Below, piece after piece: positions 42,419 to 57,244 of a stretch of DNA of 64,000 nt. Every line of letters starts with the position of its first letter. Positions within the stretch are counted from its first letter, which is position 1. This stretch comes from an uncultured Actinomycetota bacterium (GTDB lineage Bacteria; Actinomycetota; Actinomycetes; JACCUZ01): NCBI GenBank assembly GCA_963746465.1, contig CAVVAY010000005.1, forward strand, positions 297,725 through 361,724, given 5' to 3'. Both the position numbers and the translations under genes were made by a program. Under the pieces are notes generated by a model. That model was given only the letters and a program-made list of their open reading frames with translations, had not been told where the DNA came from and searched no databases.

Positions 42419-43362
42419 CGGACCCCGGCGATGCGGCAGACGTGGTCCTCGAGACAAGCCACCTGACGAAGCGCTTCGGACCGGTGCTCGCGGTCGACGA
42501 CGTCTCGATCGAGGTCCGCCAGGGCGACCGGTACGGCTTCCTCGGCCCGAACGGGTCCGGCAAGACGACGACGGTGCGGATGATGCTCGGCCTGGTCTAC
42601 CCGACCTCCGGCAACGTGGAGCTGTTCGGCCGACCGATGCCCGGCCCGGCGCGCCGAACGCTTCCGGACGTGGGCGCCCTGATCGAGGGGCCGGCGTCCT
42701 ACGGCCACCTCTCGGCCCGGACCAACCTCGCCCTGATGGACGCCGCGGGCCGGGGCGGCGGCCGGCGCACCCGGCGGCGGCGGATCGAGCAGGCGCTCGA
42801 GCAGGTCGGGCTCGACGGTGTCGGTCGGCGCCCGGTGAAGACCTTCTCCCTCGGGATGAAGGCCCGGCTCGGCCTGGCCGGCGCCCTGCTGCGGCGGCCG
42901 CGGCTGCTGGTGCTGGACGAGCCGACCAACGGGCTGGACCCGCAAGGCATCCACGAGGTGCGCGACCTGCTGCTCGAGCTCAACCGCGACGGGACCACCT
43001 TGTTCGTCTCGAGCCACCTGCTCGCCGAGGTCGAGAGCCTGTGCACCCGGGTCGGCGTCCTGCAGGCCGGCCGGCTCGTCGCGCAGGAGGACCTCGCCAC
43101 CCTGCAGGCGCCGACCGGGCTCGTCCTCGTGCGCACGCCGGACCCGGACCTGGCGGTCTCGGTGCTCGACGGCCGGGTCGTGCGTCGCGACGGCGACCTG
43201 CTGGCCGTCCAGGGATCGAGCGCCGACGCGCTGGCCGGCCTGCTCGTCGGCAACGGCGTACGCCTCACCGAGCTACAGGCCGAGCGGCGCAGCCTCGAGG
43301 AGGTCGTGCTGGAGCTCACCGGGCCCGGCTCGGACCGGGTGGCGCGGGGGCGTGGCCGGTGA
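42415..43362 (+). CDS. ABC transporter ATP-binding protein (ABC-2/DrrA-like)
   Basis: Walker A GPNGSGKTT. Signature LSLGMKARL. Walker B LLVLDEPTNGLD. Confidence 0.85.
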   Translation: MTDPGDAADVVLETSHLTKRFGPVLAVDDVSIEVRQGDRYGFLGPNGSGKTTTVRMMLGLVYPTSGNVELFGRPMPGPARRTLPDVGALIEGPASYGHLSARTNLALMDAAGRGGGRRTRRRRIEQALEQVGLDGVGRRPVKTFSLGMKARLGLAGALLRRPRLLVLDEPTNGLDPQGIHEVRDLLLELNRDGTTLFVSSHLLAEVESLCTRVGVLQAGRLVAQEDLATLQAPTGLVLVRTPDPDLAVSVLDGRVVRRDGDLLAVQGSSADALAGLLVGNGVRLTELQAERRSLEEVVLELTGPGSDRVARGRGR

Positions 43363-44180
43363 TCGCCGTCGAGCTCAGCAAGCTGTTCCGCCGGCCGCGC
43401 ACCTGGGTGACGGTCGGGCTGCTCTGCCTGCTGCCCACCGTCGTCGCGGTGTTCCTCGCGGTCACCGATGTGGGGCCTCGCCCGGGGGAGGGCCCGGCCT
43501 TCCTGTCCGCCGTGCTCGCGAACGGAGCCCTCTTCCCGGCTGCCGCTCTCGGCATCGTGCTGCCTCTGTTCCTGCCTGTAGCCGTCGCCGTCGTCGCAGG
43601 TGACGCGGTGGCGGGCGAGGCTGCCGCGGGGACGCTGCGCTACCTGCTGGTCCGTCCGGTGGGTCGCACCCGCCTGCTGCTCGCCAAGCTCCTGTCGGTG
43701 CTGGTGTTCCTCGTCGTCGCCGTCACCGCGGTCGCGGCGACGGCCTACGAGGTGGGCACCCACCTGTTCGTGCCGGCGCCCGGCTCGCCGGCCGAGGTCG
43801 TGACAGGACTGTCCGGCAGCACCCTGACCTCGCAGCAGCTCGCCGTGCGCACGGTGCTCGTCATCCTGTACATCACCTGGTCGATGCTCGGTGTCGCGGC
43901 CGTCGCGCTGTTCCTCTCGACGCTGACCGACTCGCCGCTGGCTGCTGCGCTCGGGGCGCTCGCGGTGCTCGTCACCAGCCAGGTGCTGGTCACCCTCGAT
44001 GCGGCGTCCTCGGTGAAGCAGTACCTGCCGACTCGCTACTGGCTGGCCTGGGTCGACTTCTTCCGCGACCCGATCCTGTGGCACGACATCAGGCTGGGGG
44101 TGCTGGTACAGGGCGCGTATGCCATCGTGTTCCTCGGCCTCGCGTGGGCGGCGTTCACGACCCGTGACGTCACGAGCTGA
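43359..44180 (+). CDS. ABC-2 type permease
   Basis: Six TM helices. Overlaps the ATPase stop. Confidence 0.7.
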   Translation: MIAVELSKLFRRPRTWVTVGLLCLLPTVVAVFLAVTDVGPRPGEGPAFLSAVLANGALFPAAALGIVLPLFLPVAVAVVAGDAVAGEAAAGTLRYLLVRPVGRTRLLLAKLLSVLVFLVVAVTAVAATAYEVGTHLFVPAPGSPAEVVTGLSGSTLTSQQLAVRTVLVILYITWSMLGVAAVALFLSTLTDSPLAAALGALAVLVTSQVLVTLDAASSVKQYLPTRYWLAWVDFFRDPILWHDIRLGVLVQGAYAIVFLGLAWAAFTTRDVTS

Positions 44181-44952
44181 CTGCGCCGGGGCAACTCGTC
44201 GGCGCCACCGGCGTCGGCACCAGCAGGGCATCGAGCACGAGCGACTGGACGACGGCGTCGGTAGGTAGCTGGCCGTGAGCGATCCGCCGGCCTGGGCACA
44301 CGTCCTGCACGACGAGGTCGAGGGCGCCGTCGAGGGCGGCGCTGGACGACGGGGTGACCACCTGGTCGTCGGTGGTACGGATGCTCACCCAGATCGGACC
44401 GGGCGGGGTCTCGTCACCTCGGTTGAGCCGGCCGAGCAGCGGGCTGTCCGGCACGAGCTCCTGGCAGGCGGCCGGGCACGAGTCCGGAGCCAGCACCGAC
44501 GCCAACGCGGCGATCTCGGTGCCGTGATGAGGCGCTCCGAGCGTGACTACCCGGCGTGCCTGACCTGCGCCGCCGTCCTCCGCGACCCACAGCCGCGCCA
44601 CCACGCCGCCCGCAGAGAACCCCACGACGTCGACCGAGGGCGCCCCCGCCGCCAGCGCTGCGTCCGCGGCTCTGGCCACGGCCGACGCCTGGTCAGCAAG
44701 CGGCCCGGTCCCCGAGCCCGGCAGCCGGACCACGGAGGCGTCCCGACCAGCCGCGCGCAGCACGGCGGCCAGCCGGTCGAGGGCGGTGGCGCTGCCGCCG
44801 TACCCGGGCACGAGCAGGACAGGCCCCAACCGGTCCTGCGCGACGGGTGGCCGGCTGTCGTCCGCCGACCGGACCACGAGGGCCACGACCAGCACGACTG
44901 CCGTGGCCAGCGCCGCGACCGCCGCGAGGAAGACCCGGCGCCGCGGGCTCAT
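44170..44952 (-). CDS. Secreted alpha/beta-hydrolase (lipase/esterase-like)
   Basis: Signal/TM N-terminus. GFSAGG nucleophile elbow. Confidence 0.65.
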   Translation of the reverse strand: MSPRRRVFLAAVAALATAVVLVVALVVRSADDSRPPVAQDRLGPVLLVPGYGGSATALDRLAAVLRAAGRDASVVRLPGSGTGPLADQASAVARAADAALAAGAPSVDVVGFSAGGVVARLWVAEDGGAGQARRVVTLGAPHHGTEIAALASVLAPDSCPAACQELVPDSPLLGRLNRGDETPPGPIWVSIRTTDDQVVTPSSSAALDGALDLVVQDVCPGRRIAHGQLPTDAVVQSLVLDALLVPTPVAPTSCPGAVSS

Positions 44953-45049: not shown

Positions 45050-46096
45050 TTGCACGTCCTGGTGACCGGGGGCTGCGGCTTCGTCGGCTCGCACGTCGTC
45101 GATGAGCTGCTCGCTTCGGGTCACGAGGTGCGTGTGCTAGACGACCTGTCAACCGGTCGCCGCGAGCACCTGCGGGACGGGGTCGACCTGCGGCTGGGGG
45201 ATGTCACCGCGGAGGCAGACGTCGTGGACGCCCTCGGCGGCATCGACGCCGTGTGCCACCAAGCGGCGAAGGTGGGTCTCGGCAGCGGGGTCGCCGACCT
45301 GGCCGAGTACGTGCGTCGCAACGACCTCGGCACCGCGGTGCTGCTGTCGGCGATGGCGGCGGCCCGCATCGCCCGACTGGTGCTCGCGTCGTCGATGGTG
45401 GTCTACGGAGAGGGCGGCTACGTCTGCGCCGAGCACGGGTCGGTTGCGCCCGGGCCGCGCATGCGGGCCGATCTCGACGGCGGCCGGTTCGAGCCGCCGT
45501 GCCCCGTGTGCGCGTCGCCGCTGTCGGTACGCGAGGTCGACGAGTCGGCGCGGCTCGACCCGCGCAACGGCTACGCCGCTTCCAAGGTGGCTCAGGAGCA
45601 CCTGGCCGCCACCTGGGCCGCCGTGACCGGACGGCCGGCGGTGGCACTGCGCTACCACAACGTCTACGGACGGCGGCTGCCCCGGGACACGCCGTATGCC
45701 GGGGTGGCCGCGCTGTTCCGGTCGGCGCTGGCTCGGGGGGAGGCGCCGCGGGTCTTCGAGGACGGGCGGCAGCTGCGCGACTTCGTGCACGTGCAGGACG
45801 TGGCCGTCGCCAACCGGCTCGCCCTGGAGTCGTCGGACGTCGCGACCGGGGGGCTCACGGCGTACAACATCGCGAGCGGGCGACCGCGCACCGTGGGCGA
45901 GCTGGCCGGTGCACTGGCCGACGCGGTCGGCGGGCCGGCGCCGGTGGTCACCGGGGAGTACCGGCTCGGCGACGTCCGACACGTCGTCGCCTCGCCCGCC
46001 AGGGCAGCCGCCGAGCTCGGCTTCCACGCGGCCACCGACCTCGAGACCGGCGCAGGTGACTTCGCGGCTGAGGGCACCCCGGACGGGGGCACGTGA
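45050..46096 (+). CDS. NAD-dependent epimerase/dehydratase (UDP-sugar epimerase-like)
   Basis: VTGGCGFVGSHVVDEL Rossmann motif. YxxxK (YAASK). Confidence 0.8.
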   Translation: MHVLVTGGCGFVGSHVVDELLASGHEVRVLDDLSTGRREHLRDGVDLRLGDVTAEADVVDALGGIDAVCHQAAKVGLGSGVADLAEYVRRNDLGTAVLLSAMAAARIARLVLASSMVVYGEGGYVCAEHGSVAPGPRMRADLDGGRFEPPCPVCASPLSVREVDESARLDPRNGYAASKVAQEHLAATWAAVTGRPAVALRYHNVYGRRLPRDTPYAGVAALFRSALARGEAPRVFEDGRQLRDFVHVQDVAVANRLALESSDVATGGLTAYNIASGRPRTVGELAGALADAVGGPAPVVTGEYRLGDVRHVVASPARAAAELGFHAATDLETGAGDFAAEGTPDGGT

Positions 46097-46183: not shown

Positions 46184-46878
<695 letters not shown>

Positions 46879-46882
<4 letters not shown>

Positions 46883-48036
46883 TCCCGGCGCGGGACGTCG
46901 CTGCCGTCGCCGGGATGACCGTCTCGTGTGCGGTCGTCGCCCTCGTCGTCGGCGCCGGCCTGCTGCGGCTGCTGCGTGGTCGTTCGGTGGTCACGCACCT
47001 GCTCGTCGTCAGCTGTGCGGCGTTGGCAACCGTGGCGGGGGCGGTGCTCGTCACGACCCGGAAGATGTTCCTGTCCTCGCACGACTCGCGGGTGGTCCTC
47101 GTCGTCAGCGCGCTCGCGGCGGTCTCCGCCGTCGGCGTGGCCCTGCTGCTCGGAGGCTCGCTCCGCCGCGCCGGTCGTGCGCTGGCGACCGCCGCGGTCC
47201 AGGTCGGCGACCCGGCGTACGGCGGAGCACCTGACATGCCCACCGGTGAGCTGCGCACGGTCGCCGCGGCGCTGGACGACGCGCACGAGCGGCTGGCCGC
47301 GGCCCGAGCTGCCATCGAGGCCACCGAGACCAGCCGCCGTCAGCTGGTTGCCGGCATGAGCCACGACCTACGTACGCCGCTCGCCGGGATGCGCGCGATG
47401 GTCGAGTCGCTGGACGACGGCGTCGTCCGCGACCCGGAGACGGTGAGCCGCTACCACCGGCAGCTGGGGCTCGAGGTCGACCGCGTGGCCCAGATGGTCA
47501 GCGACCTCTTCGAGCTGTCGCGGGTCGAGGGGCCGATGCGCCTGCACCTGGAGCGCGTAGCGGCGGGCGACCTCGTCGAGGAAGCGCTGGCCAGCGCCGA
47601 CCCCGTGGCGCGCGTCAAGGGGGTCCGGTTGGTGGGGCGGGCGTCGCCCGAGCTCCCGGTGGACGTCGACCCCGACGAGTTCGGACGGGTGATGCGCAAC
47701 CTGCTGCTCAACGCGATCCGGCACACACCCAGCGACGGCACCATCGCCGTGAGCGCCGACGGCGGCACCGGTGGCAGCAGCGGTCGCGGAGTGGTCCGCA
47801 TCACGGTCGTGGACGCCTGCGGCGGCATCCCGGAGGACGACCTTCCTCGACTGTTCGAGACCGCCTTCCGTGGCAGCGCGGCCCGGACCTCTGCCGACGG
47901 CGAGGGCGGCGGCTACGGGCTCGCGATCGCCCGAGGAATCGTCGAGGCGCACCGCGGCGTGATCGCCGTCGCGAACCAGCAGCCAGGCTGTCGCTTCGAG
48001 GTGCTCCTTCCACGCGCGAGTGACTCGGCGGTTTAA
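46879..48036 (+). CDS. Sensor histidine kinase
   Basis: GTGA overlap with the response regulator. Two TM helices. H-box MSHDLRTPLAGM. HATPase_c (NLLLNAIRHT...GGYGLAIA). Confidence 0.8.
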
Positions 48037-48202: not shown

Positions 48203-48853
48203 GTGGTCATCGATGTGCTGCTGCCCTGCCTCGACGAGGCTGCGGCGCTGCCATGGGTCCTGGACCGGATGCCGTTCGGATACCGGCCCATCGTCGTGGA
48301 CAACGGGTCGGTAGATGCCTCCGCGGCGATCGCGCGGTCCCGGGGAGCAGAGGTCGTGACGGCGGAGCAGCGCGGGTACGGGGCCGCCTGCCACGCCGGC
48401 TTGATGGCCTCGACCAGCCGAGTCGTCTGCGTGATGGATGCTGATGCCAGCATCGACCCCGCTCAGCTGCCCGAGGTGACCGGCCCGGTGCTGGCGGGGG
48501 ATTCCGATCTGGTGCTGGGCCGCCGGATCACCCGTTCGCTGCGCGCCTGGCCGCTGCCGGCCCGGCTGGCGAACCTCGCCCTGGCCCGAGCGGTCCGACG
48601 ACGGACCGGACTCGGTCTGCGCGACCTCGGCCCGGTCCGCGCCTTCCGACGCGCCGACCTGATCGCGCTCGACCTCACTGACCGCCGCTTCGGCTATCCG
48701 CTGCAGACGGTCCTCGCTGCCCACGATGCCGGGTGGCGCGTGACCGAGGTGCCCGTCCGCTACCTCCCGCGGGTCGGCAGGTCGAAGGTGACCGGCACGG
48801 CGGCCGGCTTCCTGCGCGCCGTCCGGGACTCGCGGGCGGTGATGGCCCGGTGA
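48203..48853 (+). CDS. GT2-family glycosyltransferase (TIGR04283-like)
   Basis: VVIDVLLPCLDEAAAL...VVDNGSVD...VMDADAS, a GT-A DxD fold. GTG start (approximate). Confidence 0.7.
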   Translation: MVIDVLLPCLDEAAALPWVLDRMPFGYRPIVVDNGSVDASAAIARSRGAEVVTAEQRGYGAACHAGLMASTSRVVCVMDADASIDPAQLPEVTGPVLAGDSDLVLGRRITRSLRAWPLPARLANLALARAVRRRTGLGLRDLGPVRAFRRADLIALDLTDRRFGYPLQTVLAAHDAGWRVTEVPVRYLPRVGRSKVTGTAAGFLRAVRDSRAVMAR

Positions 48854-49524
48854 CCGGCACCGCGGCGCTCGTGCCGACGTTGCCGGCGCAGGTCGTGGTG
48901 CTGGCCAAGACCCCGGTGGCTGGTCGCGTCAAGACCCGGCTGACCCCGCCGTACACCGATGTCCAGGCGGCGTGCCTCGCGCAGGCCGCGCTCGTCGACA
49001 CGTTGCGCGCTGCGATGAGCTCCTCGGTGCGACGGGTCGTCCTGGTCCTGGACGGTCGGCCGGGAGAATGGCTGCCGGCCGGCGTGCCGGTCCGTCCTCA
49101 GCGCCGAGGCCGTCTCGACGAGCGCATCGCGCACGCGCTGGTCGACACCTGGACCGAGCTGCCGCTGCCGGTCCTCCTGATCGGGATGGACACCCCTCAG
49201 CTCACCGGCGCCGACCTCGACCGCGCCGTGGTGGCCCTGGTTCAGGGCGACAGCGACGCCGTCCTCGGCCCCGCTATGGACGGCGGCTACTGGGCGATAG
49301 GGCTGAGGCAACCGGCTCTCGACCATGTCCGCTCGGTCCCGATGTCCCGAGCCGACACCGGCGCCCGGCAGCTCGAGCAGCTGGTGTCCTGCGGCCTGCG
49401 GGTCCAGCTGCTAGAGACGCGGCGGGACGTCGACCTGGCCGCAGACGCCGACCTGGTCGCGGCCGAGGCGCCCGGCGGTGGCTTCGCGGCCGAGCTGACG
49501 CGGATCTCGGCGGGCGCCGCGTGA
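48850..49524 (+). CDS. DUF2064 (TIGR04282-like) protein
   Basis: VVLAKTPVAGRVKTRL...GMDTPQL...GPAMDGGYWAIGL hallmarks. GTGA overlap with the upstream GT2. Confidence 0.65.
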   Translation: MTGTAALVPTLPAQVVVLAKTPVAGRVKTRLTPPYTDVQAACLAQAALVDTLRAAMSSSVRRVVLVLDGRPGEWLPAGVPVRPQRRGRLDERIAHALVDTWTELPLPVLLIGMDTPQLTGADLDRAVVALVQGDSDAVLGPAMDGGYWAIGLRQPALDHVRSVPMSRADTGARQLEQLVSCGLRVQLLETRRDVDLAADADLVAAEAPGGGFAAELTRISAGAA

Positions 49525-50144
49525 TGGGCCAGTTGTACTCCGGCGCGCTACGTGACGGCCGGCGGCTCGAGGCCGTCTACCCGGACGGTCGTCGGGTCGC
49601 CGTACCGGTCGAGTCCTGGTTGGGGCCGCTGCAGCCCGGAGACGCCGGCCTGATCGACAGATGCACGGGTGCCACCTTGGACGTCGGCTGCGGTCCGGGG
49701 CGGCTGGCCGCGGCCCTGAGACGGCGTGGTGTCCCGGCACTGGGCATCGACGTCAACACCGAAGCCCTACGCCTCGCCCGGACTGCAGGAGCCCGGGTGC
49801 TGCGGTGCTCGGTGTTCGGCGACGTGCCGCGCCCGGGGAGCTGGGACACCGTCCTGCTCGCTGACGGCAACATCGGTATCGGGGGGGTGCCTGTGGTCCT
49901 GCTGCGTCGGGTCGCGTGCCTGCTGGCCCCCGGGGGCCACGCCCTGGTAGAGGTCGAGGGCCCCGAAGCCAGCAGCGGCCGGACCCGGCTGCGGCTGGCT
50001 AGCGGCGACCGCGTCTCACGGCCCTTCCCGTGGGCCCACCTCGCCCTTCGCGACGCTGCGGGCGCGGCCGCGCTCGCGGGAATGCGAGCTGACGACTGTT
50101 GGCAGGACTCGGGCCGTTGGTTCGTCACCCTGCGACAGGAATGA
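49524..50144 (+). CDS. SAM-dependent methyltransferase
   Basis: LDVGCGPGRLA motif I. Overlaps the DUF2064 stop by 1 nt. Confidence 0.6.
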   Translation: MGQLYSGALRDGRRLEAVYPDGRRVAVPVESWLGPLQPGDAGLIDRCTGATLDVGCGPGRLAAALRRRGVPALGIDVNTEALRLARTAGARVLRCSVFGDVPRPGSWDTVLLADGNIGIGGVPVVLLRRVACLLAPGGHALVEVEGPEASSGRTRLRLASGDRVSRPFPWAHLALRDAAGAAALAGMRADDCWQDSGRWFVTLRQE

Positions 50145-50171
50145 CCGAGCCGACCGAGAGGCATCCGGACC

Positions 50172-51377
50172 ATGGTCCCGCACTTCGTGACCGACAAGCC
50201 CCCGTTCTGGCCGCGGTTCAGCAGCCCTCTCCGGTCGACCGCCCTCACTGCACGCCTGGGGCGGGTCCTGGGGATCATGCTCGGGATCTGCTTCGTCACC
50301 GGCCTGGCGAGCCACTACCAATACCACCCGTGGTCGTGGCTGCCGGAACCAGCCAGCCCGGTCGGGCTCTACCGGGTGACGCAGGGGCTGCACGTCCTCA
50401 CCGGGATCGCGTGCATCCCCTTGATCCTCGTCAAGCTCTGGTCGGTCTACCCCAACCTGTTCCGTTGGCCAACCGTGCGCTCGGCCGGTCATGCAGTGGA
50501 ACGCCTGTCCGTGTTCGTGCTGGTCTCCTCGACCCTGCTCCAGCTGGCGACCGGCTTTATGAACATTCTCGGCTGGTACGCGTGGCCGTGGTCGTTCGTG
50601 CGAGTCCACCACTACCTCGGCTACGTCGTGATCGGCTCGGTGCTGCTGCACGTCGCCGTCAAGCTGCCCGACATCGCCTACGGGCTGCGGACCCGCGTGG
50701 CCGACGGTGACGTCCTCACCGAGACGCCCTGGAGCGACAACCCGCAGGCGCACAGCAACGCGGGTCCGGACACCAAGCCGCCGCCGACCCCAGCCATCAG
50801 CCGACGCGGTCTGCTCGCCGCGACCGGGGCCGGGGTCGGCCTGGTGGTCGTGACCACCGCCGGGCAGACCCTCACGCCGCTACGGGCGCTGGGCCTTCTC
50901 GCCGCCCGGGACCCGGGCAAGGGGCCGCAAGGCGTGCCGGTGAACCGGACGGCGATGCAAGCCGGGGTCATCGAGGCTGCCCGGGCACCGGACTGGACGC
51001 TCGAGGTCGTCGGCCCCCAGCCGTACCGGATCGGGCTGGCCGAGCTCGAGCAGATGGACTTGTCCGAAGCGAGCCTGCCGATCACCTGCGTCGAGGGGTG
51101 GAGCGTCGGGGCCTCGTGGCGTGGCATCAGGCTGCTCGACGTCGTGCGGCGGGCCGGCGGGGACGCGGGCTCGCGCGTTCGCGTCGTCTCGCTGCAGACC
51201 TTCGGGGCTTACGGCGGCAGCACGGTGGAAGGCCCACAAGTCGCGCACGCCCTGCTCGCCACCCATCTCAACGGTGAGCGGCTGAACATCGACCACGGTT
51301 TCCCGCTGCGGCTCATCGCTCCGAACCGGGCCGGCGTCCTGAACACGAAGTGGCTGACGAAGATCGTGGTGAGCTGA
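50172..51377 (+). CDS. Fused membrane domain plus molybdopterin-dependent oxidoreductase (sulfite oxidase/MsrP family)
   Basis: N-terminal 4-5 TM helices with conserved His residues. An internal twin-arginine-like SRRGLLAATGAGVG. C-terminal Moco domain (CVEGWSVGASWRGIRL...HGFPLRLIAPNRAGVLNTKWL). Confidence 0.65.
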   Translation: MVPHFVTDKPPFWPRFSSPLRSTALTARLGRVLGIMLGICFVTGLASHYQYHPWSWLPEPASPVGLYRVTQGLHVLTGIACIPLILVKLWSVYPNLFRWPTVRSAGHAVERLSVFVLVSSTLLQLATGFMNILGWYAWPWSFVRVHHYLGYVVIGSVLLHVAVKLPDIAYGLRTRVADGDVLTETPWSDNPQAHSNAGPDTKPPPTPAISRRGLLAATGAGVGLVVVTTAGQTLTPLRALGLLAARDPGKGPQGVPVNRTAMQAGVIEAARAPDWTLEVVGPQPYRIGLAELEQMDLSEASLPITCVEGWSVGASWRGIRLLDVVRRAGGDAGSRVRVVSLQTFGAYGGSTVEGPQVAHALLATHLNGERLNIDHGFPLRLIAPNRAGVLNTKWLTKIVVS

Positions 51378-51827
51378 GTGCGTTGGTGGCGGCGCGGCCT
51401 CGGGGTCGTAGGCGTCCTCATGGTCGGGTACGGCGGCCAGCGACTGCTGACCGGCACCCCGGTAGCGGACCTTCGGCCGCTCGCCGTCTGGCTGATAGCC
51501 GCGGTGCTCATCCACGACGGTGTGGTCTCGCCGGCCGTGCTCGGGGCCGGCTGGGTGGTGAAGCGGCTCCCGCCGAGGCCTCGCCGGTTCGTCCAGGCCG
51601 GCCTGGTCGTCAGCGGGATGCTCATCGTGGTGGCAGCGCCGCTGATCAACCGTCAGGGGACCCAGGTCGCCAGCAAGGGACTGCTGCTTCGCGACTATGC
51701 CGCGAACCTCGCGCTGCTGCTGGCGCTGGTGGCTCTCGTCAGCGCCGGCGGCTACCTCTGGTCGCTGGCGCAAGGGCGGTCCGGCACGGCCGCGGGTGCA
51801 TCCCCGGGCGACCCGGCCCCGCGGTGA
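51378..51827 (+). CDS. Small membrane protein
   Basis: Three to four hydrophobic helices. GTG start. The stop overlaps the next gene (GTGA). Confidence 0.4.
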   Translation: MRWWRRGLGVVGVLMVGYGGQRLLTGTPVADLRPLAVWLIAAVLIHDGVVSPAVLGAGWVVKRLPPRPRRFVQAGLVVSGMLIVVAAPLINRQGTQVASKGLLLRDYAANLALLLALVALVSAGGYLWSLAQGRSGTAAGASPGDPAPR

Positions 51828-53143
51828 GTTTCCGACGGGGACCGGTCGCGGTTCGTCCGGGAACCGACGCGTGGGCCCTGCTCGGGTGGGCCGCCCTGCT
51901 CGTCGCGGCCATCCTGTGGGGACGTCACCTGCTGCCTCAGGGCCACCTGAACGTCAGCTCTCCGCCCTTCTTGGGCCTCCCCCGGTGGGCGCCGGTAGAG
52001 CAGCTTCCCGCTCTCGCGGTCGCGGGCGCCTTCATCCTCACCGTCCCGTACCTGGCCGGCAGGCTGCCGTGGCGGCTGGCGCTCGTCCTGGCCTGGGCGG
52101 CTGCCGCGATCTGGGCGGTCGCCCTGGGGATCGGCGACGGGCACCCGACGCTCGGCGGGGTCCTCAACCAGTCGAGCGAGTACCTCCCGGCCGTGCGCAC
52201 GGTGCGGTCCCCTGGGGACTTCCTCAGCGGGTTCGCTGACGCGGTGGCGCATCTGCGCTACCCGGTGCATGTCAACGGCCATCCGCCGTTGATGGTTCTC
52301 GTCCTGTGGGGCTGGGACCGGCTCGGCGCGTCAGGGCCGGCCTGGGCCGCTGCCCTGGTGATCGGGGTAGGGGCCTCATCGGTCATGGCCGTGGCCACGA
52401 CCTTGCGTACGGTGGCCGGCGAGACGGCGGCGCGACGGACGCTGCCTTTCCTCATCCTCGGGCCCTTCGCGATCACCGTGGCCACGAGCGCGGACGCCTT
52501 CTTCCTGGGGGTGACGTCCTGGGCGGCCGCGGCGCTGGCGGTGGGACTCCACCACCGCTCGCGTCCCGTCCTCGTCCTCGCCGGACTACTTGCCGGCGCT
52601 GTTCCCTACCTCAGCTATGGACTGGTGCCCTTCGGGGTGGTGCTTGTCGCCGTGGCCGTCCTCGTCTTTCGACGCGACGGCATGCCGTCGACACGCCGCA
52701 CGGGGCTCTCGGTGACCGCCGCGTTCATAGGCGGCCTGCTCGTCGTGCCACTCGCGATGAGCGCGGCGGGGTTCTGGTGGCTAGACGGCGTCCGCGCGAC
52801 CCACGTCGCGTGGGTCGCGGGGCGGGGCGACGACCGCCCCTACCTCTACTCGTTCCTGGCCGACCTTGCCGTGCTCGCCGCCCTGACCGGCCCAGCGACC
52901 GCTGTCGCGGCAACTCGGAGGGCCAGCGTCGCGACGACGCTGCTCCCTGGGGCCGCCTTCGCCGCTGTGCTGTCCTTGGCGGCGGCCGGCGTCACCCGAC
53001 TCGAGGTCGAACGGATCTGGCTTCCGTTCGCACCCTGGATCGTGGTTCTCACCCTCTCGCTCAGCGGTCGCGTGCGGTTGTGGCTGGCGGCGAACGCGGC
53101 GGTGGCGCTGGTGTTCCAGACCCTGGTGCTCGGCGGCTGGTAG
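51824..53143 (+). CDS. Polytopic integral membrane protein (possible GT-C-type glycosyltransferase / DUF2029-like)
   Basis: About 10-12 TM helices over 439 aa. The family assignment is an inference from topology and neighbourhood only. Confidence 0.45.
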   Translation: MSFRRGPVAVRPGTDAWALLGWAALLVAAILWGRHLLPQGHLNVSSPPFLGLPRWAPVEQLPALAVAGAFILTVPYLAGRLPWRLALVLAWAAAAIWAVALGIGDGHPTLGGVLNQSSEYLPAVRTVRSPGDFLSGFADAVAHLRYPVHVNGHPPLMVLVLWGWDRLGASGPAWAAALVIGVGASSVMAVATTLRTVAGETAARRTLPFLILGPFAITVATSADAFFLGVTSWAAAALAVGLHHRSRPVLVLAGLLAGAVPYLSYGLVPFGVVLVAVAVLVFRRDGMPSTRRTGLSVTAAFIGGLLVVPLAMSAAGFWWLDGVRATHVAWVAGRGDDRPYLYSFLADLAVLAALTGPATAVAATRRASVATTLLPGAAFAAVLSLAAAGVTRLEVERIWLPFAPWIVVLTLSLSGRVRLWLAANAAVALVFQTLVLGGW

Positions 53144-53294
53144 CCATGCCCGCACCAGGGACCTTCTCAGCATCAGCCCGTACCGCACGATCACCCACGC
53201 TCAGTGCGGCGATGGCGGCGCCTCTCGACCCGGTCGAGCAGTCGTCCTGGATCGCGACGAGGACCGCAAGGCTGCCTGATGCGACAGTGGCAGT

Positions 53295-54170
53295 GTGAAC
53301 AGGAGTGGTCTTGTCGCCAGGGGGGCAGCTCTGGTCGCGCCCGTCGCGCTGGCGACGTTCAGTGGGACAGCGCTGGCAGTGGTGTATGCGGTGACGGTGC
53401 GCACCGCGCCCGGAAGGCGGTTCGGTGATGCCTCGTTGCGGGGTGCCATCCTCACCAAATCGGGTGCTGCGCAAGCTGTCGACGCTGTGTTGGGGGTGGT
53501 GTCGCTGGCCGCGTTGCTGGCCGGGATCGCGGCGATTGCTGTCACTGCGCTGATCCGGCTTCGCCGGTCGCTGGGCCTGGTCGCGATCGGCCTCGTGGTC
53601 GCGGCAAACGCGTCGACCTGGCTACTGAAGAACCATGTGCTCTCCCGGCCCGATCTGGGCCTGAGCGAGATAACCCCCTCGACGCACAACAGCCTGCCCA
53701 GTGGGCACACCACAGCGGTCTTTTCCGTGGTGGTGGCGGTGCTGTTCGTCCTGCCGGAAGGTTGGCGTCGGCCGGTCGCAGCGGCCGGCGGGCTTGCAGC
53801 GATCGCGACCGCCCTCGCGGCGATGTCAGCAGGGTGGCATCGCGCCGGAGACTCTGTCGCTGCCTTTCTCCTGGTGGGCATGTGGGCCGGGATCGCCGCG
53901 ACAACCGTCGTCGTCGTTGGCAGCGGTGAGGCTCGTCCTGCCCGACAGGGGCGGCCGGCCTCTGAGTGGAGTCGGTGGCTGTGGCCGGTGACCGGGGGCT
54001 CGATGGCGATGGGCTTGTGCGTCGCCGCAGGTCTGGTCCTTGTCGGGCCGCTGCGACGGAGCGTTGTCGGTGCGGTGTTGGCATTTGGCGCGGGTGGCCT
54101 GCTCATCGTCGCTGCGGCGGCTGCCGTGCTGCTTGCGGCCCTGCTCGTACTCAGCCGAATCGACACGTGA
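53295..54170 (+). CDS. PAP2-family phosphatase, membrane-bound
   Basis: PSGHT and HRAGD motifs between TM helices. Confidence 0.65.
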   Translation: MNRSGLVARGAALVAPVALATFSGTALAVVYAVTVRTAPGRRFGDASLRGAILTKSGAAQAVDAVLGVVSLAALLAGIAAIAVTALIRLRRSLGLVAIGLVVAANASTWLLKNHVLSRPDLGLSEITPSTHNSLPSGHTTAVFSVVVAVLFVLPEGWRRPVAAAGGLAAIATALAAMSAGWHRAGDSVAAFLLVGMWAGIAATTVVVVGSGEARPARQGRPASEWSRWLWPVTGGSMAMGLCVAAGLVLVGPLRRSVVGAVLAFGAGGLLIVAAAAAVLLAALLVLSRIDT

Positions 54171-54309
54171 TCCGCTCGATCTCTGATCAGTGACTCAGGT
54201 GCCTGATCGTCCTGCCCTTCGCGGGTGCTGTCCGCATGGCCGCGATGGTGGCGCGCATGCCCGTTGGTCTGACAGATTGCCGACATGGCGGACTCCCCCC
54301 TCGCGAAGG

Positions 54310-55674
54310 ATGAGCGTGCTCGCTGATCGGGTGGTCACGAGCCGCTGGAGAGTGCTCGCTGATGCCGTGAGAACCCAGCTGTGGCCGCTTCCGGCTGCAG
54401 CGGTCGTGGTTGCGGTGGCCGCGGGTGTGGGCCTGCCGCGCCTTGACGCGAACATCGATGATGAGTTGCCCGCCGGGATGTCCGGCTACTTGTTCGGCGG
54501 TGGGGCGGAGGCGGCCCGGTCGGTGCTCGTGGCGGTCGCCGGCTCGCTCATCACCGTGACCGCACTGACGTTCTCTCTCACCGTGGTCACCTTGCAGCTG
54601 GCCAGCAGCCAGTTCTCCCCACGGCTGCTGAGGACGTTCACGTCCGACCGGGCTGTGCAGGGCACGATGGCGTTGTTCCTTGCCACTTTCGTCTACGCCC
54701 TGACGGTGCTTCGTACGGTGCGGACCGACATCGTGGGGCAGCCGGGATTCGTCCCTCAACTGTCTGTCACGATGGCGTACGCCCTGACCATCCTCAGCGT
54801 CCTTACACTGGTTGGTTTCCTGTCGCACCTGGTTCGGGAGATCAGGGTCGAGTCCATGCTCCGCAACGTTCATCGCGAGGCGTCCACGACCATCGAGGCG
54901 ACGCTGTCAGCGCAAGGTTCCGGCGAGCAGCCCGCGCCGCCGCGGGTCCCGGCCGGCGCGGTGGACCTGGTGGCGAAAAGCTCGGGCTTCTTGACTTCCA
55001 TCAACCAGGCGGCGCTGCTCGATGCCGCCGTCAACGCTGCGGGGAACGTCACGATCGACCGTGAGCCGGGCAGCTCACTGGTTGCCGGGACCCCTGTCGG
55101 GCGCCTGTGGGCCATGGACCCCGCTCATCCGCTGCTCGCGGACCGCCTCGCCCGGTTCCAGGACGCGGCAGCGAGCGCTCTGCACATCGGTGTCGAACGC
55201 ACCGGAGCCCAGGACATCGGGTACGGCCTGCGCCAGCTGGTCGACGTGGCAGTCAAGGCCCTTTCCCCGGGCATCAACGACCCGACGACAGCGGTCCACG
55301 CCCTCGGCCATGTCAGTGCGCTGCTCTGCGAGCTGGCTTCCCGTGACCCGGGCGAGCTGGTGCAGACCGACGAAGAGGGCACGGTCCGCGTAGTCCTGAA
55401 CGGCCCGGATCTGGAGGACCTGCTGGACCTCGCGATCGCGCAGCCCCGCCGCTACGGGGCCACCGACCCCGCCGTCCTCGCCCGGCTGTTCACCATGCTG
55501 CGCGAGCTCGCGTGGTCCACCGACCGACCCGCCCACCACCTGGCCGTCGCAGATCAGCTGGGCCGACTCCTCGGCACGGTGGCCGATCAGAGGTTCGATG
55601 ACACGGAACGCACCGACCTGGCGAGCCTCGCCTCCTCGGTCGAGGACGCGCTGAACCACCGCTGGCACCCATGA
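54310..55674 (+). CDS. DUF2254-like membrane protein
   Basis: N-terminal TM helices, then a large soluble domain. ATG at 54310. Confidence 0.55.
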   Translation: MSVLADRVVTSRWRVLADAVRTQLWPLPAAAVVVAVAAGVGLPRLDANIDDELPAGMSGYLFGGGAEAARSVLVAVAGSLITVTALTFSLTVVTLQLASSQFSPRLLRTFTSDRAVQGTMALFLATFVYALTVLRTVRTDIVGQPGFVPQLSVTMAYALTILSVLTLVGFLSHLVREIRVESMLRNVHREASTTIEATLSAQGSGEQPAPPRVPAGAVDLVAKSSGFLTSINQAALLDAAVNAAGNVTIDREPGSSLVAGTPVGRLWAMDPAHPLLADRLARFQDAAASALHIGVERTGAQDIGYGLRQLVDVAVKALSPGINDPTTAVHALGHVSALLCELASRDPGELVQTDEEGTVRVVLNGPDLEDLLDLAIAQPRRYGATDPAVLARLFTMLRELAWSTDRPAHHLAVADQLGRLLGTVADQRFDDTERTDLASLASSVEDALNHRWHP

Positions 55675-56357: not shown

Positions 56358-56669
56358 GTGGAGCCTCTGCGGGTGATCGCGGCACCGCGGCGGCTGCGGA
56401 TCCTCGAGCTCGTGTGGGACCGCGAGCGGTCGGCCGGGGACATCGCCGCCCAGTTCGACGTCTCCTGGTCCGCCATCAGCCAGCACCTGACCGTGCTGAG
56501 AAGTGCGGGGTTCCTCCTCGAGCGACGCGACGGCAACAGCCGCCTCTACCGCGCCGACCAGGCGGCCCTAGGCCCGCTGCGCGCCGTCCTGGAGGAGCAC
56601 TGGCGGACGGGCCTCGACCGCGTCAAGGAGCTCGCCGAGGCCGAGCAGCAGAGCCGGGACATGACGTGA
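56358..56669 (+). CDS. ArsR-family transcriptional regulator
   Basis: RILELVWDRERSAGDIAAQFDVSWSAISQHLTVLRSAGFL HTH region. Confidence 0.75.
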   Translation: MEPLRVIAAPRRLRILELVWDRERSAGDIAAQFDVSWSAISQHLTVLRSAGFLLERRDGNSRLYRADQAALGPLRAVLEEHWRTGLDRVKELAEAEQQSRDMT

Positions 56670-57117
56670 CCGAAGCGCCCATGGCTGGGTCCGACATCCT
56701 GGAAGTCAGCGTGCACATCGCCGCCCAGCCCGAGACGGACTTCCCCTACTTCACCGACCCGGCCCGGTACGTCCTGTGGATGGGATCTGAGGTCGACCTC
56801 GAGCCGGTGCCCGGCGGTACCTACCGGGTGCGGATGCGCGACGGCGTGGAGACCGTCGGAGAGTTCCTCGAAGTCGACCCGCCCCGCCGCCTCGTCTTCA
56901 CCTGGGGCTGGACCCAAGGCCCGCCGGTCCCCCCGGCAGCACCCGGGTGGTCGTTACCCTCGAGCCTAAAGCAGACGGCACCCGTGTCGTCCTCCGTCAC
57001 CACGACCTGCCGGACGTCGAGCAGCGCCAGCACCACGCGGGCGGCTGGGAGATGTACCTCGGCCGCCTCGCCGTCCGCTTGGCCGGTGGCGACCCGGGCC
57101 GCGACCCCAACGCCTGA
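56666..57117 (+). pseudogene. SRPBCC (AHSA1-like) protein with a frameshift in a C6 run
   Basis: SDILEVSVHIAAQPETDFPYFTDP...LVFTWGWTQGPPVPP, then in the +1 frame GSTRVVVTLEPKADGTRVVLRHHDLPDVEQRQHHAGGWEMYLGRLA to TGA at 57117. The junction is at cccccc, 56929-56934. Confidence 0.55.
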
Positions 57118-57244
57118 CCGGCCCGCTTCTACCCTGTGGCCGGCGTCAGCGAGCTACGAGATGGCAGGTCTGTGACGACCAGCGTCTGCAGGTCGATCAT
57201 GGACGGAGCCGACACCGACCCGGACTCGGCTCCCGTCGGCATGG

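What the first reader, a model, noticed from the sequence alone, without database searches (positions are those of the whole stretch)
48203..54170. GT2 / DUF2064 / SAM-methyltransferase triad, followed by a fused Mo-oxidoreductase, a polytopic membrane protein and a PAP2 phosphatase, downstream of a two-component system
Three genes are translationally coupled (GTGA and ATGA overlaps): a GT-A fold glycosyltransferase, a DUF2064 protein and a small methyltransferase. This pairing resembles the TIGR04283/TIGR04282 'transferase 2 / transferase 1' pair, whose function is unknown. It is followed by four further same-strand genes: a membrane/Mo-enzyme fusion, two membrane proteins and a PAP2 lipid phosphatase. 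An OmpR/HK pair lies immediately upstream. Together these suggest an envelope glycoconjugate (a polyprenyl-phosphate-linked sugar or methylated glycolipid) module of unknown product.
Basis: partly seen in the sequence, partly recalled or inferred. Interest (0 to 1): 0.55.

Follow-up and report, generated by a model that had tools for sequence, protein, structure and literature searches.

The report
Methylthioxylose-type cell-surface sugar gene cluster
This gene row is an environmental actinobacterium's version of the pathway that Mycobacterium tuberculosis uses to attach the sulfur sugar methylthioxylose to its cell envelope, here joined to a membrane molybdenum enzyme resembling a methionine-sulfoxide reductase, which hints that the sugar serves as a repairable antioxidant.

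Summary

The product is probably not unknown.
- Homologues of the membrane protein are named 'methylthioxylose transferase' by JGI.
- Its model has a GT-C fold.
- The DUF2064 model is a nucleotidyltransferase.
- MTA phosphorylase lies in 10 of 85 related loci.
- Mycolicibacterium copies sit between menA-, menE- and pitA-type genes, which is how I recall the M. tuberculosis locus.

In 50 well-flanked loci from three actinobacterial classes, counts were GT2 47, DUF2064 46, epimerase 44, methyltransferase 40, Mo enzyme 38, the two-component system 19, PAP2 0.

The variant part is the methyltransferase, a Sco3746-type heme/molybdenum membrane protein with an MsrP-like (not sulfite-oxidase-like) active-site loop, a small HD-motif membrane protein and the regulator pair. 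As I recall it, the M. tuberculosis locus has none of these.

My hypothesis is that the Mo enzyme reduces oxidised sugar (MSX) back to MTX. This is untested.

The parts
45050..46096 (+). NAD-dependent sugar-nucleotide epimerase (GalE-like). Proposed C3 epimerase converting NDP-methylthioribose to NDP-methylthioxylose.
   Evidence: Pfam Epimerase 158 bits. Closest NCBIfam is GalE, 149 bits, below its cut-off. Present in 44 of 50 well-flanked related loci. Lies next to MTA phosphorylase in L073, L087 and L088.
46184..46882 (+). OmpR-family response regulator
   Evidence: Pfam Response_reg + Trans_reg_C. No NCBIfam equivalog reaches its cut-off. An orthologue (>=45% identity) lies inside the cluster in 19 of 50 loci.
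46879..48036 (+). Histidine kinase. Its hydrophobic N-terminal part looks like several membrane helices with almost no external loop (intramembrane-sensing type).
   Evidence: Pfam HisKA + HATPase_c. GTGA overlap with the regulator. The membrane-helix reading comes from the translation only. Co-conserved with the regulator.
48203..48853 (+). GT2 polyprenyl-phosphate sugar synthase, MtxS-like (216 aa, no membrane helices)
   Evidence: Pfam Glycos_transf_2. Best NCBIfam matches are AglJ 75 bits, dolichyl-P hexose transferase 73 and PpgS 44; TIGR04283 only 32.9 against 182. Present in 47 of 50 loci. 47% identical to the GT2 of the Mycolicibacterium MAG locus L073; cultured Mycolicibacterium loci of the same gene set are syntenic with the M. 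tuberculosis region.
48850..49524 (+). DUF2064 protein. Proposed nucleotidyltransferase making NDP-5-methylthioribose from MTR-1-phosphate.
   Evidence: Pfam DUF2064 86.7 bits. TIGR04282 131 bits against 134; CofC 34.7 bits. AF2 model pLDDT 94. Foldseek: 3cgx E 1e-17, then FbiD/CofC guanylyltransferases (6bwg, 2i5e, 7p97), GlmU, KdsB, IspD. Present in 46 of 50 loci.
49521..50144 (+). Small class I SAM-dependent methyltransferase-fold protein (207 aa), substrate unknown
   Evidence: Pfam Methyltransf_25/11/23. Family alignment A3 has an invariant SAM motif and an unusual DGN(I/V)GIGG motif, and no invariant Cys. Its full-length PDB homologue 9khp/9klx is uncharacterised. Present in 40 of 50 loci.
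50172..51377 (+). Membrane heme/molybdenum oxidoreductase of the Sco3746 type: 4 TM helices with conserved His, a twin-arginine motif before TM5, and an extracytoplasmic MsrP-like Mo domain.
   Evidence: Pfam Oxidored_molyb. Alignment A2 has invariant H74, H146, H160, R211-R212 and C306-V-E/D-G-W-S311. hhalign to E. coli MsrP gives 97% probability with CVEGWS aligned to CVEAWS. The sulfite-oxidase Arg loop is absent. The architecture is described in PMC5449189. Present in 38 of 50 loci.
51378..51827 (+). Small membrane protein (about four hydrophobic segments) with an invariant His-Asp motif. Conserved partner of the Mo enzyme.
   Evidence: No Pfam or NCBIfam hit. Alignment A4 has invariant H46, D47, P52 and a conserved NPS loop. 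Lies directly downstream of the Mo enzyme in 32 of 85 loci.
51824..53143 (+). GT-C fold glycosyltransferase, MtxT-like (methylthioxylose transferase family)
   Evidence: No Pfam hit. Homologues are named 'methylthioxylose transferase' by JGI; 45% identity to P0192 and 35% to P0277. AF2 pLDDT 90, pTM 0.92. Foldseek hits AftA, STT3, Pmt4, ArnT, PglB and Emb at probability about 1. At least 574 species-level genomes encode a relative.
53295..54170 (+). PAP2 phosphatase: adjacent on the same strand but NOT part of the conserved module
   Evidence: Pfam PAP2 35.1 bits. No homologue in any of the 85 related loci. 151-nt gap after the GT-C gene.

Best explanation
The region encodes a methylthioxylose (MTX)-type thio-sugar decoration pathway for an envelope glycan.

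Inferred route, following the M. tuberculosis model:
1. 5'-methylthioadenosine is phosphorolysed to 5-methylthioribose-1-phosphate. The phosphorylase gene is not in this window.
2. The DUF2064 nucleotidyltransferase activates it to an NDP-sugar.
3. The epimerase (45050-46096) converts ribo to xylo configuration.
4. The GT2 (MtxS-like) transfers the sugar to polyprenyl phosphate.
5. After flipping, the GT-C enzyme (MtxT-like, 51824-53143) transfers it to an unknown extracytoplasmic acceptor.

Shown here: family and fold assignments, and co-conservation. Inferred: the substrate identities.

Five further genes are co-conserved with this core. Three are co-operonic with it: a small SAM-methyltransferase-fold protein, a Sco3746-type membrane heme/Mo enzyme whose outward-facing Mo domain is MsrP-like, and a small HD-motif membrane protein. 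The other two are the OmpR/HK pair just upstream.

I propose that the Mo enzyme uses quinol-derived electrons to reduce the sulfoxide form of the sugar (methylsulfinylxylose, MSX) back to the thioether. That would make the surface sugar a rechargeable oxidant sink, with the intramembrane-sensing kinase adjusting expression. This last step is a hypothesis (about 0.3). The methyltransferase's substrate is unresolved.
For: Core pathway:
- Literature fixes Rv0539 = MtxS (makes the lipid-linked MTX donor) and Rv0541c = MtxT.
- Homologues of the window's GT-C protein carry the JGI name 'methylthioxylose transferase' (BLASTP 45% and 35% identity).
- The GT-C fold is confirmed by AF2 and Foldseek.
- The DUF2064 model is a CofC/FbiD-like nucleotidyltransferase, not a Leloir glycosyltransferase.
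- The GT2 is closest to polyprenyl/dolichyl-P sugar synthases.
- Of 50 loci with at least 7 kb on both sides of the GT-C gene: GT2 47, DUF2064 46, epimerase 44, MT 40, MoOx 38, TCS 19. They span Actinomycetes, Acidimicrobiia and Thermoleophilia.
- An S-methyl-5'-thioadenosine phosphorylase lies in 10 of 85 loci; the two members scored are above the NCBIfam cut-off.
- In Mycolicibacterium rutilum and Mycobacterium sp. M26 the cluster lies between UbiA (menA-type) plus PNP_UDP_1, and AMP-binding (menE-type) plus PHO4 (pitA-type) genes. As I recall it, this matches the flanks of the M. tuberculosis mtx locus.

Mo enzyme:
- Invariant His residues, twin-arginine motif and Mo-binding Cys.
- 97% hhalign probability to E. 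coli MsrP, with a shared C-V-E-x-W-S loop.
- It lacks the 13-residue Arg-bearing loop of sulfite oxidase and ends with the Mo-binding domain, with nothing after it.
- The architecture and outward topology were shown experimentally for Sco3746.
- E. coli msrPQ also sits beside an OmpR/HK pair, hprRS.
Against: - No direct comparison with the M. tuberculosis proteins was possible: the sequences could not be fetched and Angala 2017 is not held.
- That Rv0540 is the DUF2064 protein, that Rv0535/Rv0536 belong to the five-gene cluster, and the M. tuberculosis gene order all rest on my memory.
- There is no MTA phosphorylase in the 64-kb window.
- The acceptor glycan in this non-mycolate organism is unknown, and the sugar could be a different 5-substituted pentose.
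- The JGI names are automatic annotations.
- Nothing ties the Mo enzyme to the sugar except gene order. It is missing from 12 of 50 loci and, as I recall, from the M. tuberculosis locus. It could simply repair oxidised envelope proteins as MsrP does.
- Its membrane domain shows no similarity to MsrQ.
- The methyltransferase has no place in the published route.
Confidence: 0.78

Rival explanations
1. The Mo enzyme, its small membrane partner and the two-component system form a general envelope protein-repair system (an MsrPQ analogue reducing methionine sulfoxide in exported proteins). On this view it merely shares an operon with the sugar pathway, perhaps because both respond to oxidative envelope stress, and it does not act on the sugar.
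For: - The active-site loop is MsrP-like and hhalign gives 97% probability.
- E. coli msrPQ lies next to the hprRS two-component system.
- The Sco3746 family is widespread beyond actinobacteria.
- The Mo enzyme is absent from 12 of 50 loci.
Against: - The Mo gene sits inside the operon, between the methyltransferase and the GT-C gene, with start/stop codons abutting or overlapping those of its downstream neighbours.
- This linkage persists across three classes despite rearrangements of order and strand.
- It scores only 34 bits against a cut-off of 207 for the MsrP family.
Confidence: 0.3
2. It is an ordinary polyprenyl-phosphate hexose or pentose pathway (GtrB/GtrC- or ArnC/ArnT-like) that adds a common sugar with no sulfur to an envelope polymer.
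For: The GT2's best family matches are dolichyl-P hexose transferases. The epimerase is GalE-like.
Against: - Common NDP-hexoses need no dedicated DUF2064 nucleotidyltransferase.
- MTA phosphorylase is co-located in 10 loci.
- The GT-C protein belongs to the family annotated as MtxT.
- The cluster is syntenic with the mycobacterial mtx region.
Confidence: 0.1
3. It is an arsenosugar-type pathway (TIGR04282/TIGR04283 system) that handles 5-deoxy-5-dimethylarsinoyl-ribose, with the methyltransferase acting like ArsM.
For: - DUF2064 scores 131 bits against the TIGR04282 cut-off of 134.
- NCBI names some homologues 'arsenosugar biosynthesis glycosyltransferase'.
- The Nonomuraea locus L004 abuts an ArsR / ACR3-type (SBF) / LMWPc-type arsenate-reductase set.
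- An ArsR-family regulator lies about 2 kb downstream in the window.
Against: - The GT2 fails TIGR04283 (32.9 against 182).
- No ArsS-type gene stands out: no radical-SAM Pfam domain appears among the called genes of the loci inspected, and none is among the frequent gene clusters of the 85 loci.
- The methyltransferase family has no invariant cysteine, which As(III) methyltransferases need.
- MTA phosphorylase and the MtxT-family GT-C point to the thio-sugar.
Confidence: 0.04

Closest known systems
M. tuberculosis methylthioxylose (MTX) capping cluster: MtxS (Rv0539), MtxT (Rv0541c) and neighbours (Angala et al. 2017, ACS Chem Biol 12:682)
   Same: - Same enzyme set: a short soluble GT2 polyprenyl-P sugar synthase, a DUF2064 nucleotidyltransferase, a GalE-like epimerase and a GT-C transferase of the family annotated as MtxT.
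- MTA phosphorylase is linked in related loci.
- Mycolicibacterium copies have the flanking genes I recall for M. tuberculosis.
   Different: - This window and most relatives also carry a methyltransferase, a heme/Mo membrane enzyme, a small HD-motif membrane protein and often an OmpR/HK pair. As I recall it, the M. tuberculosis locus has none of these.
- There is no MTA phosphorylase in the window.
- The host is a non-mycobacterial actinobacterium (nearest relatives are Sporichthyaceae MAGs), so the acceptor cannot be assumed to be ManLAM.
Sco3746 family of dual Sec/Tat-inserted heme-MoCo membrane proteins (Tooke et al. 2017, eLife; PMC5449189)
   Same: Five membrane helices, conserved histidines for heme b, an invariant twin-arginine before helix 5, and a C-terminal outward-facing Mo domain.
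   Different: - That paper addressed membrane insertion only; no substrate or genomic partner was proposed in the passages I read.
- Here the protein is embedded in a thio-sugar operon.
- Direct homology to Sco3746 itself was not tested (no sequence available). SCO3744, two genes away, is listed as a putative methyltransferase.
E. coli MsrPQ methionine sulfoxide reductase with the HprRS two-component system
   Same: - Sulfite-oxidase-fold Mo domain without a dimerisation domain.
- A shared C-V-E-x-W-S loop around the Mo-binding cysteine.
- Electrons presumably come from a membrane heme protein.
- An adjacent OmpR/HK pair.
   Different: - Here it is a single fused polypeptide.
- The membrane domain is unrelated to MsrQ.
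- It scores 34 bits against a cut-off of 207 for the MsrP family.
- The proposed substrate is a sugar sulfoxide, not a protein methionine sulfoxide.
TIGR04282/TIGR04283 'transferase 1 / transferase 2' pair (now labelled arsenosugar biosynthesis)
   Same: - A DUF2064 protein next to a GT2.
- Both systems would handle a 5-deoxy-5-substituted ribose derived from a 5'-substituted adenosine (this parallel is my inference).
   Different: - The GT2 is not TIGR04283, and DUF2064 is just under the TIGR04282 cut-off.
- No radical SAM or ArsM partner was seen.

Membership tests
MTX (methylthioxylose) biosynthesis cluster of M. tuberculosis | GT-C glycosyltransferase of the MtxT (Rv0541c) family | tested here: met
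   Homologues at 35-45% identity are named 'methylthioxylose transferase' by JGI. GT-C fold by AF2 and Foldseek. Not compared with Rv0541c itself.
MTX (methylthioxylose) biosynthesis cluster of M. tuberculosis | Short GT2 polyprenyl-phosphate sugar synthase (MtxS, Rv0539) | tested here: met
   Pfam GT2, with best matches to Dol-P/polyprenyl-P sugar synthases. 216 aa, against an Rv0539 of at least 196 codons. Adjacent to DUF2064 in 46 of 50 loci, and in the syntenic Mycolicibacterium loci.
MTX (methylthioxylose) biosynthesis cluster of M. tuberculosis | Nucleotidyltransferase that activates methylthioribose-1-phosphate (Rv0540, DUF2064 by my memory) | tested here: met
   Pfam DUF2064 and a CofC/FbiD-like nucleotidyltransferase fold. 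The identity of Rv0540 as DUF2064 is from memory.
MTX (methylthioxylose) biosynthesis cluster of M. tuberculosis | NAD-dependent epimerase (GalE3-like) | tested here: met
   Window 45050-46096, Pfam Epimerase 158 bits. Present in 44 of 50 loci.
MTX (methylthioxylose) biosynthesis cluster of M. tuberculosis | MTA phosphorylase linked to the cluster | tested here: not met
   None in the 64-kb window (tblastn). Present in 10 of 85 related loci and next to the epimerase in L073, L087 and L088. It may lie elsewhere in the genome.
MTX (methylthioxylose) biosynthesis cluster of M. tuberculosis | Product is 5-deoxy-5-methylthio-xylofuranose on an envelope glycan | not testable with these tools
   Requires NMR/MS of the glycan or of the lipid-linked donor.
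TIGR04283 (transferase 2, arsenosugar-associated GT2) | Score at or above the NCBIfam cut-off (182 bits) | tested here: not met
   32.9 bits, covering only the N-terminal 90 residues.
TIGR04282 (transferase 1, DUF2064 subfamily) | Score at or above the NCBIfam cut-off (134 bits) | tested here: not met
   131 bits over the full length, marginally below. NCBI names some close homologues this way.
Sco3746-type dual Sec/Tat heme-MoCo membrane protein | Five TM helices, conserved His in TM2-4, twin-arginine directly before TM5, C-terminal Mo domain | tested here: met
   Alignment A2 has invariant H74, H146, H160 and R211-R212, plus Oxidored_molyb at residues 270-401. The features are as described in PMC5449189. 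The TM count was read from the sequence, not run through a predictor.
MsrP (NF003767) | Equivalog score at or above 207 bits; soluble Tat-exported protein partnered with MsrQ | tested here: not met
   34.2 bits. It is fused to a membrane domain unrelated to MsrQ. It does share the CVE-WS active-site loop, so it may work like MsrP without being a member.
Sulfite oxidase / sulfite dehydrogenase | Arg-rich substrate loop after the Mo-cysteine (CAGNRR...) and a C-terminal dimerisation domain | tested here: not met
   The 13-residue loop holding the Arg residues is deleted relative to chicken sulfite oxidase. The protein ends at the end of the Mo domain.
ArsM-type As(III) S-adenosylmethionine methyltransferase | Conserved cysteines that bind As(III) | tested here: not met
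   No invariant cysteine among 24 family members. No NCBIfam ArsM hit.

The most novel reading that the evidence does not exclude
The ancestral actinobacterial MTX cluster is a complete redox device. A surface thioether sugar is made, exported and attached. It is then kept reduced by a dedicated quinol-driven, MsrP-like methylsulfinyl-sugar reductase (the Sco3746-type heme/Mo protein plus its HD-motif partner), under the control of an intramembrane-sensing two-component system. On this reading M. tuberculosis has lost the repair and regulatory half. That would explain why both MTX and its sulfoxide MSX are found on its lipoarabinomannan (my recollection of the literature), and it would give MTX a defined function as a rechargeable extracellular antioxidant.
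Probability: 0.3. Interest if true: 0.8.

Novelty: new variant of a known kind. Interest (0 to 1): 0.5.

Why it matters
- **Role of MTX.** As far as I recall, the function of MTX on M. tuberculosis lipoarabinomannan has been unclear since its discovery in 2002, with antioxidant and immunomodulatory roles only suggested. A conserved operonic link between the MTX genes and an outward-facing sulfoxide-reductase-like Mo enzyme gives a concrete, testable function. It also gives a first candidate substrate for the Sco3746 family.
- **Diagnostics.** MtxT-family genes occur in at least 574 species-level genomes, including many environmental Mycolicibacterium. This bears on the assumed specificity of MTX-directed urine LAM tests and of thioether-labelling probes.
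- **Annotation.** The DUF2064 'glycosyltransferase' label used in genome annotation is probably wrong. The fold is that of a nucleotidyltransferase.

Tried and rejected
- A literature search for 'DUF2064' found nothing.
- The exact window DUF2064 protein is not in the contig index.
- A 34-residue peptide search of the PDB for the MsrP loop gave only noise. I replaced it by fetching the real E. coli msrP and running hhalign.
- The GT-C profile has no PDB match by sequence.
- The N-terminal membrane domain of the Mo enzyme is not similar to MsrQ or to cytochrome b561 YodB.
- The methyltransferase-Mo enzyme 'fusion' (608 aa) called in L001 was rejected as a frameshift artefact, because tblastn hits in that MAG are split across frames.
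- PAP2 and DUF2254 were rejected as module members.
- The promoter/terminator scan gave nothing above shuffled expectation.
- The PDB codes 9KHP and 9KLX have no paper in the library.

Full report
**Observation.**
The window is 72% G+C, so I used third-position GC to choose among the many open frames. This gives one + strand gene row:
- epimerase 45050-46096
- response regulator (RR) 46184-46882
- histidine kinase (HK) 46879-48036
- GT2 48203-48853
- DUF2064 48850-49524
- methyltransferase (MT) 49521-50144
- membrane/molybdenum fusion (MoOx) 50172-51377
- small membrane protein 51378-51827
- polytopic membrane protein 51824-53143
- PAP2 53295-54170
- DUF2254 54190-55674

The junctions show GTGA overlaps at RR/HK, GT2/DUF2064 and small-TM/GT-C. 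The DUF2064/MT junction reads GTGATG rather than ATGA. The start codon of the small membrane protein directly follows the Mo enzyme's stop codon. The only omission is the epimerase just upstream of the regulator pair.

**What the core is.**
The GT2 is not TIGR04283 (32.9 bits against a cut-off of 182). It is closest to dolichyl/polyprenyl-phosphate sugar synthases: AglJ, haloarchaeal Dol-P hexose transferase and PpgS. The DUF2064 protein scores 131 bits against the TIGR04282 cut-off of 134, and also hits CofC.

[quoted passage not shown] Rv0541c is MtxT, which transfers MTX to the mannose caps of lipoarabinomannan (primary paper Angala et al. 2017, not held). From my memory of that paper, the route is MTA, then methylthioribose-1-phosphate, then an NDP-sugar, then C3 epimerisation, then decaprenyl-P-MTX, then the glycan. 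I also recall that the five genes include the MTA phosphorylase Rv0535, the epimerase Rv0536 and Rv0540.

**Evidence that the window encodes the same pathway.**
- The 439-aa membrane protein has no Pfam hit. Its homologues at 40-45% identity are named 'methylthioxylose transferase' by JGI (BLASTP 45%, E 1e-63). So are many 451-aa Mycolicibacterium proteins related to it at about 35%.
- Its AlphaFold model (pLDDT 90, pTM 0.92) matches AftA, STT3, Pmt4, ArnT, PglB and EmbB/C at Foldseek probability about 1. That is a GT-C fold.
- The DUF2064 model (pLDDT 94) matches 3cgx, then the FbiD/CofC guanylyltransferases, then GlmU, KdsB and IspD. It is therefore a nucleotidyltransferase, which is what the pathway needs. 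It is not a glycosyltransferase as the NCBI label says.

**Co-conservation.**
A scan of one genome per species with a profile of the GT-C protein found relatives in at least 574 genomes. The 80 best loci span Actinomycetes, Acidimicrobiia and Thermoleophilia.

| Gene | Loci out of 50 with at least 7 kb on both sides |
|---|---|
| GT2 | 47 |
| DUF2064 | 46 |
| epimerase | 44 |
| methyltransferase | 40 |
| Mo enzyme | 38 |
| regulator pair | 19 |
| DUF2254 | 1 |
| PAP2 | 0 |

- De novo clustering of all ORFs in the 85 loci recovered the same set, plus the small membrane protein (32 loci) and an MTA phosphorylase (10 loci). The two phosphorylases I scored are above the NCBIfam cut-off.
- In Mycolicibacterium rutilum and Mycobacterium sp. 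M26 the cluster is flanked on one side by PNP_UDP_1 plus UbiA (menA-type), and on the other by AMP-binding (menE-type) and PHO4 (pitA-type) genes. This matches my recollection of the gene order around Rv0534c-Rv0545c. These loci are therefore probably the syntenic counterparts of the M. tuberculosis mtx locus.
- I conclude with about 0.78 confidence that the window's core is an MTX-type pathway.

The main gaps are these. There was no direct comparison with the M. tuberculosis proteins. The window holds no MTA phosphorylase. The acceptor in this Sporichthyaceae-like organism is unknown.

**What is added to the known pathway.**
As I recall it, the M. tuberculosis locus has no methyltransferase, no Mo enzyme, no small membrane protein and no two-component system. 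Most other actinobacteria, including Mycolicibacterium, have them inside the cluster.

*The Mo enzyme.*
- The family alignment shows three invariant histidines in the membrane part. It also shows an invariant twin-arginine before the fifth helix and an invariant C-V-E/D-G-W-S around the Mo-binding cysteine.
- This is the architecture that Tooke et al. 2017 described for S. coelicolor Sco3746. They showed it to be inserted by Sec and Tat together, with the Mo domain outside, and called it a fused distant relative of MsrQ/MsrP.
- SCO3744, two genes away from Sco3746, is listed as a putative methyltransferase. Sco3746 therefore probably sits in the S. coelicolor copy of this cluster. This is an inference.
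- Against the real E. coli MsrP, hhalign gives 97% probability, with CVEGWS aligned to CVEAWS.
- Against chicken sulfite oxidase, the family lacks the 13-residue loop after the cysteine that carries the sulfite-binding arginine, and the protein ends with the Mo-binding domain, with no dimerisation domain after it.
- It fails the MsrP family cut-off (34 against 207 bits). Its membrane domain is unrelated to MsrQ. So it may work like MsrP without being a member.

*The small membrane protein.* It has an invariant His-Asp motif and no known family.

*The methyltransferase.* It has a normal SAM motif, an unusual DGN(I/V)GIGG motif and no invariant cysteine. Its only full-length structural relative, 9khp/9klx, is uncharacterised.

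**Proposed mechanism for the added part.**
As I recall it, the thioether of MTX is readily oxidised and the sulfoxide MSX is found on lipoarabinomannan. An outward-facing, quinol-linked, MsrP-like reductase encoded between the sugar-synthesis genes and the transferase is well placed to reduce MSX back to MTX. That would make the sugar a rechargeable oxidant sink.

E. coli msrPQ sitting beside the hprRS regulator pair is a functional parallel to the kinase/regulator pair here. This rests on gene order and active-site resemblance only, and I give it about 0.3. The main rival, also about 0.3, is that the enzyme repairs envelope proteins and is merely co-regulated. I cannot assign the methyltransferase a step.

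**Rejected readings.**
- The arsenosugar reading fails on the GT2 score and the lack of cysteines in the methyltransferase. I also saw no radical-SAM (ArsS-type) gene among the called genes of the loci I inspected.
- PAP2 and DUF2254 are local neighbours, not module members.
- One Nonomuraea locus uses an unrelated GT87-family membrane protein in the GT-C slot.

**Verdict.**
The conserved association with a Sco3746-type Mo enzyme, a methyltransferase and a two-component system makes it a new variant. That association offers a testable answer to what MTX is for.

Noticed in passing
L004:6876-13207 (Nonomuraea sp., GCA_040649575.1): Here the epimerase, GT2, DUF2064 and methyltransferase genes are paired with a GT87-family (PF09594) membrane protein that shows no similarity to the MtxT-like family (hhalign probability 0.4%). 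The locus abuts an ArsR / ACR3-type (SBF) / LMWPc-type arsenate-reductase gene set. A different GT-C enzyme may deliver the same sugar to another acceptor.
   Followed up: partly
L001:10648-12474: The 608-aa methyltransferase-Mo enzyme 'fusion' in this MAG's gene calls looks like an assembly frameshift. tblastn hits of several window proteins are split across frames in L001 and L002.
   Followed up: yes
window 51378-51827: This small membrane protein (about four hydrophobic segments) has an invariant His46-Asp47, Pro52 and a conserved NPS loop, and belongs to no known family. It always lies directly downstream of the Mo enzyme (32 loci). From memory, M. tuberculosis Rv0218/Rv0219 may be an equivalent pair outside the mtx locus.
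   Followed up: partly
window 56358-57175; L088:6202-7001: An ArsR-family HTH gene followed by an AHSA1/SRPBCC gene lies about 2 kb downstream of the module. The same pair lies a few kb from the cluster in Mycobacterium sp. M26. This may be coincidence.
   Followed up: no
window 41339-44952: A MucB/RseB-like protein, an ABC ATPase, an ABC-2 permease and a divergent PGAP1-like alpha/beta hydrolase lie upstream of the epimerase. The ABC, permease and hydrolase genes are syntenic in the closest relatives (L001, L002, L007, L008) but not in distant ones.
   Followed up: partly
L016 (Gemmatimonadales MAG, 3.2 kb) and L076 (Melainabacteria bin, 6.7 kb): Short contigs binned to non-actinobacterial phyla carry actinobacterial-type MtxT-like genes (37-44% identity); L016 also carries the GT2 and epimerase. 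The cause is either misbinning or horizontal transfer.
   Followed up: no
L083:10001-11119 (Mycobacterium sp. MAG RYN_164): There is an MtxT-like tblastn match (35% identity) without a clean ORF and without any other cluster gene within 10 kb. It may be a decaying or orphan copy.
   Followed up: no
PDB 9khp, 9klx, 9km6: An uncharacterised 'Class I SAM-dependent methyltransferase' with an actinobacterial-looking sequence is a full-length homologue (E 6.5e-21) of the cluster's methyltransferase family. No paper on it was found in the library.
   Followed up: partly
window 46879-48036: The kinase's N-terminal 120 residues look like several hydrophobic helices with almost no external loop (an intramembrane-sensing type). 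That would fit sensing of a membrane or lipid-carrier signal rather than a soluble ligand. This is read from the sequence only.
   Followed up: no
L030:7341-8330 and four other loci (Solirubrobacterales-type): In the loci that lack the methyltransferase, a predicted lipoprotein of about 329 aa sits between the Mo enzyme and DUF2064 genes. I did not characterise it.
   Followed up: no
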